In this document: positions 2,513 to 48,847 of the stretch, piece by piece
Layout: each line of letters opens with the position of its first letter
Numbering within the stretch: position 1 is the stretch's first letter
Made by a program: the position numbers and the translations under genes
Notes under the pieces: generated by a model
What the model saw: the letters and a program-made list of their open reading frames with translations, nothing else
Told to the model about the DNA's origin: nothing
Databases searched by the model: none
From: Escherichia phage 310Ecol104PP
Sequence record: OR062946.1
Length of the DNA: 64,000 bases
Strand: one strand, 5' to 3'

Positions 2513-3094
2513 AACATTTACTTTAGACTGTTTTTCAGATGGCAATTCATATCCACATATTACAATTTTATGATCAATATCAAAATACACAGAAGCAATA
2601 TGATTAATGATATTTTCAGTGAAGTCTAAATCAACATCAATATCTTTTTGACCACAGCCCAAAGGATAAATAATGCGAGTAATTCGATTATCTTTAACAA
2701 ATATTCCACCGACATACTCTGTGCTGCGTTTAAAGTCTACACGCCGACGAAATGAAAAATATTCAGGCTCTTTATGAGCTCGGCTCATAGGGCACAACGA
2801 ATAACTAGAATAAGAGATGTCAAATCCTACGCCTTCAATATGAGCCAAAGTGTCATGATTAAACCAATTATAATCGTACGCCAAATCCATTAGATTATAA
2901 TATGTAAAAGGCACCGGATTAACATCATTAGTCGCAAGCATGTAATTAGCAATTGCTATAATTTCATTGTTTTTAACGAATACAAACCGTGATTGATGCG
3001 AATGACCTGGACCCGCGTTTTCACGATTAATGATATAACACTGGGCACCTTTATATTTGTATGTATCTTTGCACTTGTGCATTTGATAGAGCAT
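2468..3094 (-). CDS. hypothetical protein, 208 aa (position and size of T4 61.2)
   Basis: ORF track; between 61.1 and sp; ends ...SIDDQIFNAFMNRD. Confidence 0.6.
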   Translation of the reverse strand: MLYQMHKCKDTYKYKGAQCYIINRENAGPGHSHQSRFVFVKNNEIIAIANYMLATNDVNPVPFTYYNLMDLAYDYNWFNHDTLAHIEGVGFDISYSSYSLCPMSRAHKEPEYFSFRRRVDFKRSTEYVGGIFVKDNRITRIIYPLGCGQKDIDVDLDFTENIINHIASVYFDIDHKIVICGYELPSEKQSKVNVSIDDQIFNAFMNRD

Positions 3095-3948: not shown

Positions 3949-5375
3949 TAAAATTTTAATTCATTCGCCAAAGCATCTAACTGGGCTCGAGTGGATTCAT
4001 TTCTTTGATAGCGATTCTGTTCAGCCTGAATCTGTTGTGAACCTGCTACTTCACTTACTTCAGTTGGAGTAGAATCTTGTTCAATTTCTACCCATTTTTG
4101 ATTTCCTTTTTGAACGCCCATCAAAAACTTATTCCATTTATTCTTATCGCCATATCGTGATTTGATTTGCTTAATGAGTTGTTGTTCAGCAGCTGCTAGC
4201 TCCTCGGTTTCAATGACCGCAAGCATAAAATCAGCTGTTGCTGGAAGACCAGCAGATTCTGCAATATCGCTCATGTTAACATCAGAAGAATCCCAAGCTT
4301 GTTTGCCGACCTGTGCTGCAGTCCAAAGAACAGTTTCGGTTTCAACAGCCAGAGCACGCAATTCCTCTGCAATAGCTTTAACAGTTGTGTAACTATTTTC
4401 TGAATAAACTCTAATGCGGCAAGATTTACAAATACCTAGATAGTCGACAATAATGATTGTTGGAACAAAATTCTTTTTGAGCTTCAATTCATTCAAGAGA
4501 GACCTGAATGTATTAGCATCTGCTCCACCAGTAGGATACTGTTTAACGATTAAACGTCCAAGAGTAGATTTCTCACGCCATTTTTCCATTTTTCCTTTAT
4601 ACTCAGCGTAAGAAATATGCCCATCATCAATATCATCAAGAGAAACATCAAGCATATTAGCATCAATACGCTTAGCACAGACTTCTTCTGCCATTTCCAT
4701 GGAAATGTAAAGAACATTATGTCCGAGCTGCAAATAATCTGCTGCCAATGAACACAATCCTAATGACTTACCAACGTTAACACCAGCCATTAAAACGTTC
4801 AGTGTTCCAGTCTCAGCTCCGCCTTTAGTAATTTTGTTTAGAATTTTAAGTTTAAATGGAACCTTACGAGCTTTATTCATATAAGATAGCCAACGTGCTT
4901 CGTAGTCATCCATCCAATCATGACCAACGTAGCTATCAAATGAAATTGATAATGCTTGGCGCATGATGTCAGGAATAGCACCAACATCCGGCATTTTCTT
5001 ATTTCGTTTTTCCGGAGGAAGCTCAGCATTAGTTTGAATTTCGATTATTTTAGACGTAGCATTAAACATCGCCCTTTGCTGAACATATTTTTCTGTTTCT
5101 TTTACTAACCAGCTGTGGTCTTCTGGAGAATCAGCCAGTTTTGAAATAAGTGTTTTTACACCAGAATATTCTGTTTCAGTAAATGAACTATTTTCTAATG
5201 CAACATTTAACGCATTAATAGATGGAACGCTATGATACTCATTAACATGAGATTTAATTAATTTGAATGTATTTTTAGCTGGACCACTTTCAAAATATTC
5301 TGAATCCATATATGGCCAAACTTTTGAAAAATAAGCTTGATCAAATATGAGATGAGAAAGAATAATTTCTACCAC
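3948..5375 (-). CDS. 41: replicative DNA helicase gp41
   Basis: 475 aa; Walker A GVNVGKS; matches recalled T4 gp41. Confidence 0.95.
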   Translation of the reverse strand: MVEIILSHLIFDQAYFSKVWPYMDSEYFESGPAKNTFKLIKSHVNEYHSVPSINALNVALENSSFTETEYSGVKTLISKLADSPEDHSWLVKETEKYVQQRAMFNATSKIIEIQTNAELPPEKRNKKMPDVGAIPDIMRQALSISFDSYVGHDWMDDYEARWLSYMNKARKVPFKLKILNKITKGGAETGTLNVLMAGVNVGKSLGLCSLAADYLQLGHNVLYISMEMAEEVCAKRIDANMLDVSLDDIDDGHISYAEYKGKMEKWREKSTLGRLIVKQYPTGGADANTFRSLLNELKLKKNFVPTIIIVDYLGICKSCRIRVYSENSYTTVKAIAEELRALAVETETVLWTAAQVGKQAWDSSDVNMSDIAESAGLPATADFMLAVIETEELAAAEQQLIKQIKSRYGDKNKWNKFLMGVQKGNQKWVEIEQDSTPTEVSEVAGSQQIQAEQNRYQRNESTRAQLDALANELKF

Positions 5376-5384
5376 ACTTACTCC

Positions 5385-5741
5385 TTAAAAGAATTTAAAT
5401 TTTTTCTTTGACCTTTTATTAAATGCATCTTGCAGTTGCATTGTAATACATTTTTCTACATGAGGAGCTAACTCAGCTTTTCTTTCTTGGTCAAGAACAG
5501 CAAAGTCCATTACGACTTTTCCATCAACCCAATCTAATTTTGTCACATACACAATGTGTGTAGAACCATCTTCTAGTTTAATGACAATCTCCTGGATAAC
5601 ATTTTCCATAGCGGATTTAATTATCTTAAGAGACTCATTAAAAAGACGTTCTTTTCTTTCTTTTTCCCCCTCCGAAGAGGGGGATTCATCGATAATTTCT
5701 AAATCTAAATCATCTTTATTCATTAAATTCTTCCATATCAC
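5385..5741 (-). CDS. 40: gp40-like protein (head vertex assembly chaperone position)
   Basis: 118 aa, between 41 and uvsX as in T4; positional. Confidence 0.65.
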   Translation of the reverse strand: MIWKNLMNKDDLDLEIIDESPSSEGEKERKERLFNESLKIIKSAMENVIQEIVIKLEDGSTHIVYVTKLDWVDGKVVMDFAVLDQERKAELAPHVEKCITMQLQDAFNKRSKKKFKFF

Positions 5742-6897
5742 TTAACTGTTCGAGGTCAGTTTCTAAATCAGCAGCTGATTTACTTTTACTTTCTGGAGAT
5801 TTAAATTTTTCAACCTTTGAGTTAATCAATTCATCAACTTCAGCTTCAACAATTTCATTACTATCAATAGCACCTAACTGATAAGCACGTTTAATAGCAT
5901 CTCGGAATGGTTGATGCTTAAATAAAGGACCCCAGAATGTAGTGCAGTTAGTATCTTTTGCACGCCAAGATTTTTCTTCGCGAATCATCTCGCCGGTTTC
6001 TTCGTCAAGAAATTCACGAGCATACCAACCATTCTTAGGTTTTACTACAAATCCTAATTCTAGAGCCATATCTAACAATCCAGAATAAGGATCGATGCCA
6101 CCGTCAAATTTAACATCAATAAAGAATTTACTTTTTTCTTTAACGGTACGAGATTTTTCTACATTTAGAACAAATTGATACCCCTGAAGATCAGAACCAT
6201 CTTTAATCTGACGCTTACCGATAATGAATACAGTATCAGCCGAATACATTACGCCTGTACCACCTGTCATCACGGTTTTACTAAACATTTCAATTGTTTC
6301 AATTGTATGGTTAACCGCAACGCACGGAATATTTTTAATGCTAAAATAAGGAGTAACAATACGGAATAATGACTTCAGTGATTTAGCACGAGTCATATCT
6401 GCCACAGATTTTTCATTCAAGGCATCTTCCGTTTCTTTCTTGGAAGCCATATTACCGATTGAGTCGATGAATACAATAACCTTTTCACCACGCTCAATAG
6501 CTTCAAGCTGGTTCACCATATCAATTTTCAGCTGTTCAACTGACTGGATTGGTGTATGAATTACTCGTTCCGGGTCAACTCCCATGGATCGCAAATAAGC
6601 TGGAGTAATACCAAATTCGCTATCATAGAATAGACAAACCGCGTCAGGATATTTGTTCAAATACGCCGCAACCATAGTCAAAGACATATTTGATTTAAAG
6701 TGTTTAGAAGGCCCTGCGAAAATAGTTAAACCAGACTGCATACCACCATCAATCGCACCAGAAATAGCAATATTAAGCATTGGAATTTTTGTACGAATTA
6801 CATCCTTTTCATTAAAGAATTTAGATGTAGTCAGTTCAGCAGTCATTTTAGAAGTGGAAGCTTTAATCAAACGGGATTTTAAATCTGCAATAGACAT
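5716..6897 (-). CDS. uvsX: UvsX RecA-like recombinase
   Basis: 393 aa; MSIADLKSRLIKASTSK..., RecA fold; matches recalled T4 UvsX. Confidence 0.95.
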   Translation of the reverse strand: MSIADLKSRLIKASTSKMTAELTTSKFFNEKDVIRTKIPMLNIAISGAIDGGMQSGLTIFAGPSKHFKSNMSLTMVAAYLNKYPDAVCLFYDSEFGITPAYLRSMGVDPERVIHTPIQSVEQLKIDMVNQLEAIERGEKVIVFIDSIGNMASKKETEDALNEKSVADMTRAKSLKSLFRIVTPYFSIKNIPCVAVNHTIETIEMFSKTVMTGGTGVMYSADTVFIIGKRQIKDGSDLQGYQFVLNVEKSRTVKEKSKFFIDVKFDGGIDPYSGLLDMALELGFVVKPKNGWYAREFLDEETGEMIREEKSWRAKDTNCTTFWGPLFKHQPFRDAIKRAYQLGAIDSNEIVEAEVDELINSKVEKFKSPESKSKSAADLETDLEQLSDMEEFNE

Positions 6898-44325: not shown

Positions 44326-44787
44326 TCATTGAGTTTTAATTACTGCTTTAGAAGCCTTTCCTGGTAAACGACGACTGTTGATAATTGCCATCCTACATTG
44401 AAGTGACGGGTCTTTGAATTTCGCATTAGGTTTACAAACTGTAAATCCAAGCCAAAGATTTCCATCTGTGATTTCTAAACGTCCAGGACGATATTCAACC
44501 CCATCAATAAAATCCTCGTCAATGTCAGGACGCGGAGGCATACTCAGGAATTCATTAACTTCTAAAACATGGTCTTTTATTTTATGGAATAATTCAAAAA
44601 CATATGTCTCATCAATCTCCCGTTGAATTGCGCGATCAAGAAGATGCTGAGAATATTTTAGATGAAACGATGAGACCCCTGCTGCTTTTGATGCCTCACG
44701 AATCTCATTGTTAATTTGACGAAACTCCGACTCAAAGTGACGACGAAGCTTATTTCGACGGATAAAAACTTCTGTATTGATAGTCAT
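44326..44787 (-). CDS. regB: RegB endoribonuclease
   Basis: 153 aa MTINTEVFIRRNKLRRHFESEFRQINNEIREASKAAG; matches recalled T4 RegB. Confidence 0.9.
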   Translation of the reverse strand: MTINTEVFIRRNKLRRHFESEFRQINNEIREASKAAGVSSFHLKYSQHLLDRAIQREIDETYVFELFHKIKDHVLEVNEFLSMPPRPDIDEDFIDGVEYRPGRLEITDGNLWLGFTVCKPNAKFKDPSLQCRMAIINSRRLPGKASKAVIKTQ

Positions 44788-45391: not shown

Positions 45392-45605
45392 ATTTTACTT
45401 CCTCACCAGTACCTAAATCATATTCAACTAAACGAATAGGTTCATGAATGCCATATCCCTGAACAGAAATTTCTGTCGTAGGATAAATTCCATCAATATC
45501 ACCCATATTCCATGCTTCATTAAATTGCTGTTCGCCTGAATTACTAAACCATTCGGCGAAAGCATTTAGCACATCTTCAGAACCTTCAATAATTATCTTT
45601 GCCAT
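45384..45605 (-). CDS. hypothetical protein, 73 aa
   Basis: ORF track. Confidence 0.5.
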   Translation of the reverse strand: MAKIIIEGSEDVLNAFAEWFSNSGEQQFNEAWNMGDIDGIYPTTEISVQGYGIHEPIRLVEYDLGTGEEVKYD

Positions 45606-45967
45606 TACAGACTCTCGGTAAAGGTACGAGCGATAACGTCGCGCTGCTGTTCCGGAGTCAGAGAGTTAAAGCGAACTGCATAACCGGATACACGGATGGT
45701 CAGCTGCGGATATTTTTCCGGATGCTTAACTGCATCTTCCAGAGTTTCACGACGCAGAACGTTTACGTTCAGGTGTTGACCACCTTCAATTTTAACTGTA
45801 GGTTGTGTTTCAATTTCAATTTCACGGGCATGTAAACCGTAGAAAATTTCTGGGTCTACAAAAGAGTCCTCTTTAAAGGTTTTAGAGACAATAATTCGTG
45901 CTTGAATACCGTCTTCAAAATAAATAGTACCTTTATGTGTGCCTTCAAGAATTTGATATGCTTTCAT
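45605..45967 (-). CDS. autonomous glycyl radical cofactor (GrcA/YfiD homolog)
   Basis: 120 aa; C-terminal [60 protein letters not shown] matches recalled E. coli GrcA. Confidence 0.85.
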
Positions 45968-45974
45968 ATAAACC

Positions 45975-46304
45975 TCAATTAGAAAATAAATTTATCCAAG
46001 ATTGTTCTTTAATTAAAAATGGCTCAGAATCATATGCCATTAAACTCTGTGTGATTAGTCCTTTAAAAGGCCCATCAATAAATTCCATGGTAAAATATGG
46101 AATTTTATTCATTAGCCGTGCATTAGGAGCAGTACATAAAACTCTGCATCCTTTGAATACACCTTTTTGTAATTTGTATTGCTTGGGATAAAATTCGCTC
46201 AAAATGTTGTTATTTGCCAAAATTTCAAAATGATTCACCAATTTATTTTTAATAGTTTTTGGCGAAAAATAAAGATATTCGAAAAGCTGTGTGTCTGTCA
46301 TCAT
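45975..46304 (-). CDS. hypothetical protein, about 109 aa
   Basis: likely start ATG 46304, ATGA overlap with upstream stop. Confidence 0.5.
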
Positions 46305-46840
46305 TGCATTCCGATTACGAAAAACTGCGGACGAGTAATACCACCAATGCAACATTTACTATTACAGCAGTAGTGTACAGTGTCAATATGGACGCTATAA
46401 ATCTTATCCATATCAGGAGATTTGACAGGCTCATCGATTATATACAAAATTCGCGAAAGCGATAAACCTCTGAACTTACTTCCTTTATTACCAATAAAAC
46501 TGCGCACAGAATCAGTAAATAAACGAAAACGTATATCATCATTAGAATAACGCGAAAATTCCTTTTTAATGTTATTTGCAGAAATTTTAGCGTAAGCTGA
46601 AGTATTAGAAAGAACAATAACTGTTCCGCCATCATACAGCCAATTAGCAGCAAAGTTAGTCACAGCAATTGATTTACCGGATTGACGTCCACCATCTATA
46701 CGAAGTGTGCAGTACTGTTTAAGTAATTCTTCAAATGGCGGGATATATTCGTTTTTACAAATTTCTTCTACTCTAGCATCAGAATGGTGTGTAAAAGCAT
46801 TCATCAGGGATAGATACGGGCCAGTTAAAAATGTTCTCAT
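46301..46840 (-). CDS. P-loop NTPase with C-terminal Cys cluster, about 179 aa
   Basis: Walker A GGRQSGKS, Walker B-like ILYIIDEP, HYCCNSKCC; start chosen at ATG 46840 (MRTFLTG). Confidence 0.55.
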   Translation of the reverse strand: MRTFLTGPYLSLMNAFTHHSDARVEEICKNEYIPPFEELLKQYCTLRIDGGRQSGKSIAVTNFAANWLYDGGTVIVLSNTSAYAKISANNIKKEFSRYSNDDIRFRLFTDSVRSFIGNKGSKFRGLSLSRILYIIDEPVKSPDMDKIYSVHIDTVHYCCNSKCCIGGITRPQFFVIGMQ

Positions 46841-46981
46841 TTTATTCTCTCTAAATTTGGGCCATTCCATGGCGCATGAATTGTCCATTTCTGTATTTAC
46901 CCATTACCGCACTCAGGCTCGACCTTATTACAGGTTGGCGGGAATCCCTTATAGAATCATAAGGTCCAGGTTGTTCCCATA

Positions 46982-47455
46982 TTATTTGAATGATTTGACG
47001 TACTGAATAGAACCTTTACTATTCACAAAGGCAATTTTACCATTTTTGTTATACATGGTAGCAGTACGTTGATAACCATAAGTTTGTTTACCAGATTGAT
47101 AACCAACTAATGCAAAATTATCTTCACCCATTTTATTCTGCTTAGCGCGAATGCGTTCATGGCCATGTGCCATAAGAACCTTAGCATCACCCGTTGCAAT
47201 GGATCTACGAGTTTTTTCATCTTCAACTGTATTAACAAAGTCGTCAAATGAATCAAATTTAGCATGAGATTTATTATACAGTTTTCCATCTACTGCATAA
47301 TTATATCCTTGTACATCCATCTCAACTTCTGTACCGTCATCCAATACAGCAGTGATTTTCTGTCCTTTTTTAAATTTCAAAAGATCAGTAAAAGATTCAG
47401 CAATAATTTGAGAATTAATAGCTGCTTCAGTAATAAATTCTTGATATGTTTTCAT
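46982..47455 (-). CDS. internal (capsid-injected) protein with capsid targeting sequence
   Basis: 157 aa; N-term MKTYQEFITEA matches T4 CTS consensus MKTYQEFIAEA. Confidence 0.65.
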   Translation of the reverse strand: MKTYQEFITEAAINSQIIAESFTDLLKFKKGQKITAVLDDGTEVEMDVQGYNYAVDGKLYNKSHAKFDSFDDFVNTVEDEKTRRSIATGDAKVLMAHGHERIRAKQNKMGEDNFALVGYQSGKQTYGYQRTATMYNKNGKIAFVNSKGSIQYVKSFK

Positions 47456-47471
47456 GTGTATCCTTTAATTT

Positions 47472-47789
47472 TTATTCTTTAGGGAAGTTTTTAGAATATG
47501 CATCATAAAGCTTATTTCCAATACGGCGGAAAACTCTAGCCGCAAAACGATTTTCTGGGTTTTTAATCATGATTTGCATCATATAAGTACCCGCGTCAGA
47601 AAGAGCTTCTTCATAGTACCCGTTAATTTCTTTAAGAGTCCTACGTTTACCACCAGGACCATCAACAGTGATTTTCCATTTACCTGTAGAAGTGCGACTT
47701 GGCGGCTCAACTTGTTCAATCCAGATATAACCACCTTCTACACGTTGTCCTGCAGCAGATTCTGCAATAAATTCTTTATACGTTTTCAT
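47472..47789 (-). CDS. internal (capsid-injected) protein with capsid targeting sequence
   Basis: 105 aa; N-term MKTYKEFIAES; basic. Confidence 0.65.
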   Translation of the reverse strand: MKTYKEFIAESAAGQRVEGGYIWIEQVEPPSRTSTGKWKITVDGPGGKRRTLKEINGYYEEALSDAGTYMMQIMIKNPENRFAARVFRRIGNKLYDAYSKNFPKE

Positions 47790-47825
47790 GTGTTTCCTTT
47801 AAATATTTTAATTAGTAACTGTGAA

Positions 47826-47855
47826 TATACTATCACAGTTCTAGGAGAAAGTAAA
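47826..47855 (-). promoter_or_regulatory. T4-type early promoter
   Basis: GTTTAC, 18 nt, TAGTAT; -10 in loop of perfect 8-nt inverted repeat AACTGTGA/TCACAGTT. Confidence 0.55.
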
Positions 47856-47860
47856 CAACT

Positions 47861-48391
<531 letters not shown>

Positions 48392-48847
48392 TTAAAAGAG
48401 GTTGTTCATTATTCGGTAAAGTGAAGGACCCATCACATATTGCCACTGAGTGCGAGGAATAAGAGCAAAAGCATCCATCTCTGGAATCATAACGCCATCT
48501 TTATTTTCAAAATAAGACTCGCAATGGCAATTTCTGAACATCTCATGCTCTACTGGAATCGTATAATAAAACAACTGTAGGTCTTTATTACTAGAATATT
48601 TAAATACACCTAGGTCTTCTAGAAGGTCTGGATTATAATTGCTAAAACCGGTCTCTTCTAAGCATTCTCTTCGTGCTGCATCTAATGCGCTTAAATCAGA
48701 ATTTTCTACACGGCCCTTTGGAATATCCCAACGATGTGCCATCATTCCAGGCTTACGAGAACCAGTAACCCGACCCATAAATAAATCTTTATCTTCTGTC
48801 ATAAAAATAATACCAGCTGATAATGTTTTCATTTTAATTTCCTGCAT
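48392..48847 (-). CDS. nudE: Nudix hydrolase NudE
   Basis: 151 aa; Nudix box GRVENSDLSALDAARRECLEETG. Confidence 0.85.
   Translation of the reverse strand: MQEIKMKTLSAGIIFMTEDKDLFMGRVTGSRKPGMMAHRWDIPKGRVENSDLSALDAARRECLEETGFSNYNPDLLEDLGVFKYSSNKDLQLFYYTIPVEHEMFRNCHCESYFENKDGVMIPEMDAFALIPRTQWQYVMGPSLYRIMNNLF

What the first reader, a model, noticed from the sequence alone, without database searches (positions are those of the whole stretch)
46301..46840. Small P-loop NTPase with Cys cluster where denV is absent
The gene immediately downstream of the internal-protein pair encodes an NTPase of about 179 aa with Walker A GGRQSGKS, Walker B-like YIIDEP and a C-terminal HYCCNSKCC cluster. No ORF in the window resembles T4 endonuclease V (denV), which in T4 lies in this neighbourhood. 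Lack of denV fits a T2/T6-type phage. The NTPase has no obvious assignment.
Basis: partly seen in the sequence, partly recalled or inferred. Interest (0 to 1): 0.45.

Follow-up and report, generated by a model that had tools for sequence, protein, structure and literature searches.

The report
T4 vs.8 terminase-like ATPase gene
The flagged gene is the ordinary, near-identical counterpart of phage T4 gene vs.8, a small stand-alone ATPase related to the DNA-packaging terminase. The missing UV-repair gene denV is a common cassette polymorphism. The less expected thing is a conserved, apparently undescribed RNA motif just upstream of the gene.

Summary
A 179-aa ORF lies at 46301-46840 (-) with Walker A GGRQSGKS, Walker B ILYIIDEP and HYCCNSKCC, directly after two internal-protein genes. 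No denV homolog exists in the window, nor in the closest complete genome.

The protein is 98% identical to T4 Vs.8, so it does have an assignment. It is present together with denV in T4 and in 35 of 41 related loci, so it does not stand in for denV. The Cys cluster is not conserved in the family and falls in a low-confidence loop of the model.

Profile comparison, a predicted structure (pLDDT 86.6) and fold search place Vs.8 as a truncated paralog of the large-terminase (gp17) ATPase domain. This agrees with a 2026 paper showing that vs.8 is toxic when co-expressed with the terminase sensor EcAvs2. Its native role is still unknown. It is dispensable: absent from the T6 locus and frameshifted in T2.

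A side finding: the 140-nt non-coding leader of vs.8 contains a ~59-nt three-helix RNA motif (46890-46948, -). It has clear covariation, occurs in several phage families (often beside tRNA clusters), has no Rfam match and is almost absent from bacterial genomes.

The parts
46301..46840 (-). vs.8 coding sequence (179 aa): a stand-alone ASCE P-loop ATPase, paralog of the large-terminase ATPase domain
   Evidence: ORF; 98.3% identical to T4 Vs.8; PHROG 1488 at E = 5e-79; start codon fixed
46670..46693 (-). Walker A / P-loop GGRQSGKS (residues 50-57) with the terminase-type R-Q before G-K-[ST]
   Evidence: Sequence; G51 R52 Q53 G55 K56 are nearly invariant in 31 family members; hhalign aligns it to gp17 SRQLGKT
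46427..46450 (-). Walker B strand ILYIIDEP (residues 131-138), with D136 and the presumed catalytic E137
   Evidence: aligned to gp17 MIYIDEC by hhalign; modelled as strand 131-136
46349..46375 (-). HYCCNSKCC cysteine cluster (residues 156-164); lineage-specific and probably not a conserved metal site
   Evidence: Not conserved in A1/A2; pLDDT below 50 for residues 160-163 and 165-167
46301..46327 (-). C-terminal strand and terminus PQFFVIGMQ-stop, conserved across the family; sits in the topological position of the gp17 C-motif strand (inferred)
   Evidence: strand 172-176; the correspondence to the gp17 TTT motif is inference
45975..46304 (-). vs.7 (109 aa, unknown function); its ATG overlaps the vs.8 stop by 4 nt (ATGA), which suggests translational coupling
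   Evidence: Sequence; annotation; PHROG 2049; a vs.7 homolog lies downstream in 31 of 41 loci
46841..46981 (-). Conserved non-coding leader between the internal-protein gene and vs.8. This is the place where denV ends in T4.
   Evidence: Alignments A4 and A5; conserved blocks at fixed distances from the ATG in most of 41 loci
46890..46948 (-). Core structured RNA motif: P1 closing the P2 hairpin ACCU-GUAAUA-AGGU (46922-46935), a short P3 and a GGUAA linker
   Evidence: CM R1 hit of 66.7 bits, E = 6.5e-18, the only one in the window; covariation; no Rfam match
46859..46876 (-). Conserved block TGCGCCATGGAATGGCCC about 33 nt before the start codon; function unknown
46947..46964 (-). Hairpin CCTTAT-GATTCT-ATAAGG at the 5' end of the leader, with a compensatory change in T4 (CCTCAT..ATGAGG)
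46982..47455 (-). Internal head protein gene (157 aa, DUF7412); identical to the one in T2
47472..47789 (-). Second internal-protein-like gene (105 aa, N-terminus MKTYKEFIAE)
47790..47860 (-). Empty e-ip intergenic site. In Shigella phage A2, teqhal and the slur phages a denV cassette (~414-417 bp extra) sits exactly here.

Best explanation
The ORF is the ortholog of bacteriophage T4 gene vs.8. Vs.8 is a single-domain, stand-alone ASCE P-loop ATPase that descends from the N-terminal ATPase subdomain of the T4-type large terminase (gp17). It keeps the nucleotide-binding and hydrolysis residues: a P-loop with the terminase-style Arg-Gln, the Walker A Lys, and Walker B Asp-Glu. It ends right after the strand that carries the coupling (C) motif in gp17. 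It has no subdomain II and no nuclease/translocation domain. It should therefore bind ATP, and probably hydrolyse it, but it cannot package or cut DNA by itself (inferred). It is a dispensable accessory gene in the e-regB block, which also carries the anti-defence sponges vs.3 (TadIV-1; the paper read) and vs.4 (Acb2; from my own knowledge, not tested here). The only experimental phenotype so far is that the terminase sensor EcAvs2 recognises it like a terminase ATPase (published). My preferred guess at its native role, at roughly 25-30%, is a terminase-mimicking factor in phage-host conflict, that is, a decoy or inhibitor of a host system. An accessory role in packaging or nucleotide metabolism together with the translationally coupled Vs.7 is the main alternative. 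denV is absent because the interval between e and vs.8 is a cassette-swapping region. denV and the internal-protein genes come and go there independently of vs.8.
Confidence: 0.8

Rival explanations
1. Vs.8 is a packaging accessory. As a free terminase-like ATPase module it would join or regulate the gp16/gp17 motor, for example by capping the pentamer, competing for the small terminase, or timing packaging.
For: Homology and fold similarity to the gp17 ATPase subdomain. A terminase sensor is predicted and shown to recognise it at the same pocket as a terminase ATPase.
Against: The gene is missing from the T6 locus and broken in T2, and both phages package DNA normally (their viability is established knowledge). 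It lies in the early/accessory e-regB block, far from genes 16 and 17. The family is restricted to part of the Straboviridae, whereas the motor is universal.
Confidence: 0.12
2. Vs.8 is unrelated to terminases. It would be a minimal SF2-helicase-like or PhoH/kinase-like NTPase acting on RNA or nucleotides.
Against: There is only one RecA-like domain and no recognisable helicase motifs beyond Walker A/B. Every sequence-level signal points to terminases. The R-Q-x-G-K-[ST] P-loop is the T4-terminase form. The published PSI-BLAST search converges on T4-like terminases.
Confidence: 0.08
3. The HYCCNSKCC cluster makes this a metal- or redox-dependent NTPase (a Zn or Fe-S site) with a function distinct from other Vs.8 proteins.
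For: Four Cys and two His lie within 9 residues. A weak Pfam hit to the conotoxin I-superfamily covers this stretch (E = 0.0032, below cut-off).
Against: Only the first CC persists in relatives above about 60% identity. The second CC is already lost at 87% identity, and there are no Cys at this site in distant members. The segment is modelled as the end of a helix plus a low-confidence loop.
Confidence: 0.05
4. The NTPase replaced denV functionally, as an alternative UV-repair factor in phages that lost denV.
For: Only positional: in T4, denV is the gene immediately upstream of vs.8.
Against: vs.8 and denV co-occur in T4, Shigella phage A2, RB69, PEi20, LC53 and 35/41 loci. Vs.8 is 98% identical in phages with and without denV.
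Confidence: 0.01

Closest known systems
Bacteriophage T4 Vs.8 (PHROG 1488; 'vs.8 conserved hypothetical protein')
   Same: 98.3% amino-acid identity over all 179 residues. Same neighbours (vs.7, vs.6/GrcA-like, regB downstream; internal proteins and e upstream). Same conserved leader.
   Different: Nothing of substance. The window has a 1-nt insertion upstream that fuses 16 extra in-frame codons to the ORF (an apparent 195 aa), and it lacks the denV gene that precedes vs.8 in T4.
T4-type large terminase gp17, N-terminal ATPase domain (Pfam Terminase_6N; PDB 2O0H, 3CPE, 3EZK)
   Different: 179 aa against 610 aa. It lacks subdomain II, the canonical TTT coupling motif (it ends in G-M-Q), the nuclease domain, and the portal and small-terminase contacts. 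It scores below Pfam's gathering threshold. It lies in an accessory early-gene block and is dispensable.
Ksap1/Ksap2, the non-terminase activators of Avs2 (PMC13601566)
   Same: Small phage proteins with a terminase-ATPase-like beta-sheet core that trigger Avs2. They are lineage-restricted and their native function is unknown.
   Different: They are different families in other phage groups (Dhillonvirus, Stephanstirmvirinae). Vs.8 retains Walker A/B and detectable sequence homology to the terminase.
T4 endonuclease V (DenV, pyrimidine-dimer glycosylase)
   Same: Only the genomic neighbourhood.
   Different: No homolog anywhere in the window or in the nearest complete genome. It is unrelated to Vs.8.

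Membership tests
T4 Vs.8 family (PHROG 1488) | Full-length, high-scoring match to the family profile and to T4 Vs.8 | tested here: met
   PHROG 1488 at E = 5.3e-79 over profile positions 2-177 of 177; 98.3% identity to T4 over 179 aa
T4 Vs.8 family (PHROG 1488) | Conserved position between e / internal proteins (upstream) and vs.7 / regB (downstream) | tested here: met
   e in 41/41, regB in 40/41 and vs.7 in 31/41 loci
Large terminase ATPase domain (Terminase_6N / TerL) | Walker A with P-loop arginine, plus Walker B with catalytic glutamate | tested here: met
   GGRQSGKS and IIDE are conserved and align to gp17 161-167 and 251-256
Large terminase ATPase domain (Terminase_6N / TerL) | Score above Pfam's gathering threshold for PF03237 | tested here: not met
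   12.7 bits against a cut-off of 22, E = 0.099
Large terminase ATPase domain (Terminase_6N / TerL) | Fold of the TerL ATPase core | tested here: met
Large terminase ATPase domain (Terminase_6N / TerL) | C (coupling) motif, subdomain II and the C-terminal nuclease domain, that is, a complete packaging enzyme | tested here: not met
   The protein ends at residue 179 right after the fifth strand, with G-M-Q. hhalign covers only gp17 158-261.
SF2 helicases | Two tandem RecA-like domains with helicase motifs I-VI | tested here: not met
   Single domain of 179 aa; only Walker A/B are conserved
DenV / pyrimidine dimer DNA glycosylase | Any ORF or frame in the window with similarity to T4 DenV | tested here: not met
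   tblastn best E = 4.4; controls at 1e-94; also absent from the whole FelixPlatter genome
Structural Zn / Fe-S cysteine-cluster proteins | Cysteine ligands conserved across the family | tested here: not met
Any Rfam RNA family (for the vs.8 leader motif) | Covariance-model match at E <= 10 | tested here: not met
   No relevant hit in the window leader or in three unrelated phage loci that carry the motif

The most novel reading that the evidence does not exclude
The 140-nt leader of vs.8 is not a spacer. It carries a previously undescribed, phage-specific structured RNA: a ~59-nt three-helix core at 46890-46948 (-), plus conserved flanking blocks. The same core occurs in Tevenvirinae (before vs.8 or an internal-protein gene), in Vequintavirinae, and in several other virulent phage groups. 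In those it lies on the same strand as, and next to, tRNA clusters, and is sometimes followed by an intrinsic terminator. It could be a cis-regulatory element (riboswitch-like, processing or antitermination), a small stable RNA, or a tRNA-anticodon-arm-like decoy. In T4-like phages it would control or accompany the terminase-mimic Vs.8.
Probability: 0.5. Interest if true: 0.6.

Novelty: already known. Interest (0 to 1): 0.3.

Why it matters
The finding as given matters little. It re-identifies T4 vs.8 and a well-known denV presence/absence polymorphism of T-even phages. Two points give it some value. First, Vs.8 has just become relevant to bacterial immunity as a non-terminase trigger of Avs2. 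This analysis independently confirms its terminase-ATPase ancestry and defines the conserved core: the R-Q P-loop, R113, R124-G125, D-E, and the terminal PLFFVIGMQ. It also shows that the gene is dispensable (T6, T2) and that the Cys cluster is irrelevant to the family. Second, the conserved leader contains a structured RNA motif shared by unrelated virulent phages. It is absent from Rfam and almost absent from about 186,000 bacterial and archaeal genomes. If it is functional, it is a new phage RNA element whose link with tRNA clusters and accessory genes can be tested directly.

Tried and rejected
1. Single-sequence phmmer and the 13-sequence profile against the PDB found no terminase. Only the 31-sequence profile did.
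2. BLASTP of Vs.8 against gp17 gave only spurious local alignments, apart from a 17-residue P-loop match.
3. The first AF2 run with a shallow alignment was unusable (pLDDT 58.6). It was repeated with the deeper alignment.
4. Foldseek against the PDB gave only marginal, mixed helicase and ATPase hits.
5. NCBIfam had no model for Vs.8 or Vs.7.
6. The idea that the 195-aa ORF or an upstream uORF (MD..CA.EWP) is translated was rejected. There are frame-shifting indels between relatives, and the ATG of 'ATGGAC' is not conserved.
7. For the leader: RNAalifold found only three short hairpins. MFE z-scores are no better than shuffles. The supported structure therefore rests on covariation, not on energy.
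8. A host-RNA mimic was not supported: there was no blastn match in 5,426 E. coli genomes.
9. The sigma-70 consensus scan placed no promoter-like site in the 46841-46981 leader, on the gene's strand upstream of vs.8, although a published construct uses 'the promoter of vs.8'.
10. No further copy of the motif exists in the window.
11. A literature search for the motif strings found nothing.
12. A resemblance of GAGCCCAAGCGCGGUAA to twister-ribozyme loop sequences and to the RNase P 'GUGCGGUAA' was recalled from memory only. Rfam scans did not support either.

Full report
**1. What is at the coordinates**

The window is a Tequatrovirus (T4-like) genome segment. It aligns at 94-100% identity over about 59.5 kb with Escherichia phage FelixPlatter; the interval around the finding is 99.1% identical. 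On the minus strand the gene order is:
- nudE (48392-48847)
- e lysozyme (47861-48355)
- a 105-aa internal-protein-like gene (47472-47789)
- a 157-aa internal protein (46982-47455; DUF7412 / PHROG 3155)
- the flagged ORF (46301-46840/46888)
- a 109-aa gene overlapping its stop by 4 nt (45975-46304)
- a GrcA-like glycyl-radical protein (45605-45967; PF01228, E = 2e-18)
- further small genes, then regB (44326-44787)

**2. Gene model**

- The PHROG profile and all homologs begin at M-[RK]-x-(F)-L-T.
- The window has a 1-nt insertion relative to T4 and T2 just before this ATG. The upstream 'extension' is therefore read in different frames in different phages and cannot be conserved coding sequence.

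**3. Identity**

The protein is 98.3% identical to T4 Vs.8 and 100% identical to the Shigella phage A2 homolog.
- tblastn finds it in 1009 phage records, down to about 35% identity in Klebsiella, Enterobacter, Serratia and Edwardsiella T4-like phages.
- RB32, RB69 and PEi20 annotate it as vs.8.
- An exhaustive HMMER search of 1.84 billion representative proteins finds only 41 clusters. Most are single-domain proteins of about 165-185 aa; the rest are fragments and two longer forms. The family is narrow.
- A scan of IMG/VR gives 41 loci. Most lie on contigs of about 155-178 kb, the others on shorter contigs of 14-148 kb.
- In those loci vs.8 always lies between e (41/41) and regB (40/41), and a vs.7 homolog is detectable downstream in 31/41.

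**4. What kind of protein**

Family alignment (31 sequences, mean column identity 36%):
- Nearly invariant: G51, R52, Q53, G55, K56 (Walker A), R113 and G125.
- Well conserved: the hhh(I/V)DEP Walker B and the C-terminal P-L-F-F-V-I-G-M-Q-stop.
- The cysteines are not conserved. The first CC persists only in relatives above about 60% identity. The second pair is gone by 87% identity. Distant members have none.

Structure prediction:
- With the deeper alignment AlphaFold2 gives a confident model (pLDDT 86.6, pTM 0.85): a five-stranded, helix-flanked P-loop fold.
- The only low-confidence segments are residues 160-163 and 165-167, inside the Cys cluster.

Fold search:
- Fold alone does not separate helicase from terminase.

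Sequence evidence does separate them:
- PHROG 2 'terminase large subunit' at E = 7e-6.
- Pfam Terminase_6N, sub-threshold.
- Profile hmmsearch of the PDB ranks three gp17 entries 2nd to 4th (E = 0.007-0.015).
- hhalign of the family profile against gp17 gives probability 84%, E = 7.5e-6. It aligns GRQSGKS with SRQLGKT (gp17 161-167), the R-G pair, and IIDEP with YIDEC (gp17 251-256).

Vs.8 stops right after the strand that carries the TTT coupling motif in gp17. That topological correspondence is inferred from the model and from established knowledge of gp17. Vs.8 has no counterpart of subdomain II or of the nuclease domain.

BFVD holds many similar small, uncharacterised proteins from other large phages.

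**5. Literature**

- A Nature Communications paper of August 2026 (PMC13601566) picked vs.8 out of an AlphaFold 3 screen of T4 proteins against the STAND sensor EcAvs2. [quoted passage not shown] It states that the native function is open and suggests an anti-defence role as one possibility.
- A second 2026 paper (PMC13243611) tested each of Vs.3-Vs.8 against type IV Thoeris. Only Vs.3 (TadIV-1) was active. The same paper shows that T6 lacks this roughly 3-kb T4 segment.

My analysis reproduces the homology claim independently and adds nothing that contradicts it.

**6. denV**

No frame in the window resembles DenV (best tblastn E = 4.4), while controls score 1e-94. The whole genome of the nearest relative, FelixPlatter, also lacks it.

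denV is a movable cassette in this interval:
- In T4 it lies between ipII and vs.8.
- In Shigella phage A2, which has the same two ip genes as the window, an extra denV cassette (~414-417 bp) lies between e and the 105-aa gene, with clean junctions.
- In RB69, PEi20 and LC53 it sits at yet other positions among variable ip-like genes.
- Among the 41 IMG/VR loci, 35 have denV within 3 kb upstream of vs.8 and 6 do not.

In phage T2 (AP018813) the interval is e - 157-aa ip - vs.8, with no denV and with vs.8 split over three frames. In T6 (AP018814) regB directly abuts e, so denV, the ip genes and vs.3-vs.8 are all missing from the locus. 'T2-like' is therefore a fair description of the denV state. 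'T6-like' is not. The presence of vs.8 is unrelated to the absence of denV.

**7. Mechanism**

- Shown: the conserved nucleotide-binding and catalytic residues, the terminase-like fold, dispensability, and recognition by EcAvs2 (published).
- Inferred: ATP binding and hydrolysis; inability to translocate or cut DNA; functional coupling to Vs.7, based on the ATGA overlap and co-occurrence in 31/41 loci.
- Speculative (about 25-30%): a role in phage-host conflict as a terminase mimic. The reasons are the neighbourhood (vs.3/TadIV-1; vs.4 = Acb2 from my own knowledge, not tested here), lineage restriction and dispensability.
- Against a simple decoy: Vs.8 triggers EcAvs2 rather than silencing it.

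**8. Side finding: a conserved structured RNA in the vs.8 leader**

The 140 nt between the ip gene and vs.8 are conserved far beyond expectation.
- The blocks CCTGTAA.AAGG (about -97 from the ATG), GCGGTAA (about -74) and GCCA.GGAA.GGC (about -33) recur in most of the 41 loci. The Vs.8 proteins in many of those loci are only 35-45% identical.
- In T4 the element starts immediately after the denV stop codon; in the window it starts after the ip stop codon.
- It is not coding: there are indels, and the ATG is not conserved.

A manually derived structure has three elements:
- P1 closing the junction
- the P2 hairpin ACCU-GUAAUA-AGGU
- a short P3, followed by a GGUAA linker

It is supported by covariation:
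- On 29 distinct sequences, 93.9% of cells pair. The covariation score is 0.284 against 0.073 in shuffles (0/500) and at most 0.086 in slid controls.
- Two P1 pairs show CG/GC/AU/UA/GU types with no unpaired case.
- A covariance model finds one copy in the window (46890-46948, 66.7 bits, E = 6.5e-18).
- The model also finds instances that were not in the seed and that keep the pairs.

Distribution:
- The core also occurs outside T4-like phages: Vequintavirus (rV5-like), contigs of about 46-70 kb, and contigs of 84-92 kb.
- In most of those loci it lies on the same strand as a nearby tRNA cluster. In two loci it is followed by a terminator-like hairpin.
- In JD18-like phages it precedes an internal-protein gene inserted before vs.8.
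- There is no Rfam 15 match in four loci.
- There is no hit in E. coli genomes.
- A specific pattern hits only one contig among 185,579 bacterial and archaeal species genomes.
- No paper contains the motif strings.

Caveats: I derived the structure from these same sequences. Folding energies are not better than shuffles. RNAalifold recovers only part of the structure. The function is unknown.

**9. Verdict**

The finding is real but ordinary. It is T4 vs.8, a known and recently described terminase-like ATPase of unknown native function, sitting next to a common denV-minus configuration. Novelty of the finding as given: already known. The adjacent RNA motif is the only part that looks new and deserves follow-up.

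Noticed in passing
window 46841-46981 (-), core 46890-46948: Conserved non-coding leader of vs.8. It contains a ~59-nt three-helix RNA motif with covariation. The motif is shared with Vequintavirus and other non-T4 phages, usually next to tRNA clusters. It is absent from Rfam and nearly absent from bacterial genomes.
   Followed up: partly
window 46859-46876 (-): The block TGCGCCATGGAATGGCCC lies about 33 nt before the vs.8 ATG and is conserved across genera. In JD18-like phages it is duplicated, once before an inserted internal-protein gene and once before vs.8. This suggests a junction or translation-initiation module.
   Followed up: partly
L008 (phage T2 AP018813) 5757-6289: In this T2 record vs.8 is split over three reading frames (two frameshifts), and only a 57-aa fragment is annotated. 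It is either a natural pseudogene or a sequencing error.
   Followed up: partly
L009 (phage T6 AP018814) 4490-5507: In T6, regB is directly followed by e. The whole vs.3-vs.8 / denV / ipII-ipIII interval is absent from this locus, consistent with PMC13243611.
   Followed up: yes
window 45975-46304 (-): The vs.7 start codon overlaps the vs.8 stop (ATGA), and a vs.7 homolog follows vs.8 in 31 of 41 loci. It is a possible functional partner of the ATPase. It has no family annotation (PHROG 2049, unknown function).
   Followed up: partly
window 45605-45967 (-): vs.6 encodes a GrcA/YfiD-like autonomous glycyl-radical cofactor (PF01228, E = 2e-18). It is present in only 11 of 41 related loci.
   Followed up: no
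window 47790-47860 and L001 3790-4274: The denV cassette has at least two insertion points in Tequatrovirus: e|ip in Shigella phage A2, teqhal and the slur phages, and ipII|vs.8 in T4. The junctions are clean. Within Shigella phage A2 and its close relatives denV is only about 78% identical to T4 DenV, while the flanking genes are 98-100% identical.
   Followed up: partly
window 46982-47455 and 47472-47789 (-): The two internal-protein genes differ from T4 ipII/ipIII (only about 31% identity over the N-terminal ~70 residues) but keep the MKTY[QK]EFI[TA]E targeting sequence. The 157-aa protein is 100% identical to the T2 one.
   Followed up: no
L010 (PEi20) ~2790-3050; L050; L023: Some phages carry two tandem, diverged copies of the RNA motif upstream of vs.8. 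The second copy in L050 has longer P2 and P3 hairpins (ACCTTAAT/ATTAAGGT; GAGAC-CGC-GTCTC), which helped to define the architecture.
   Followed up: partly
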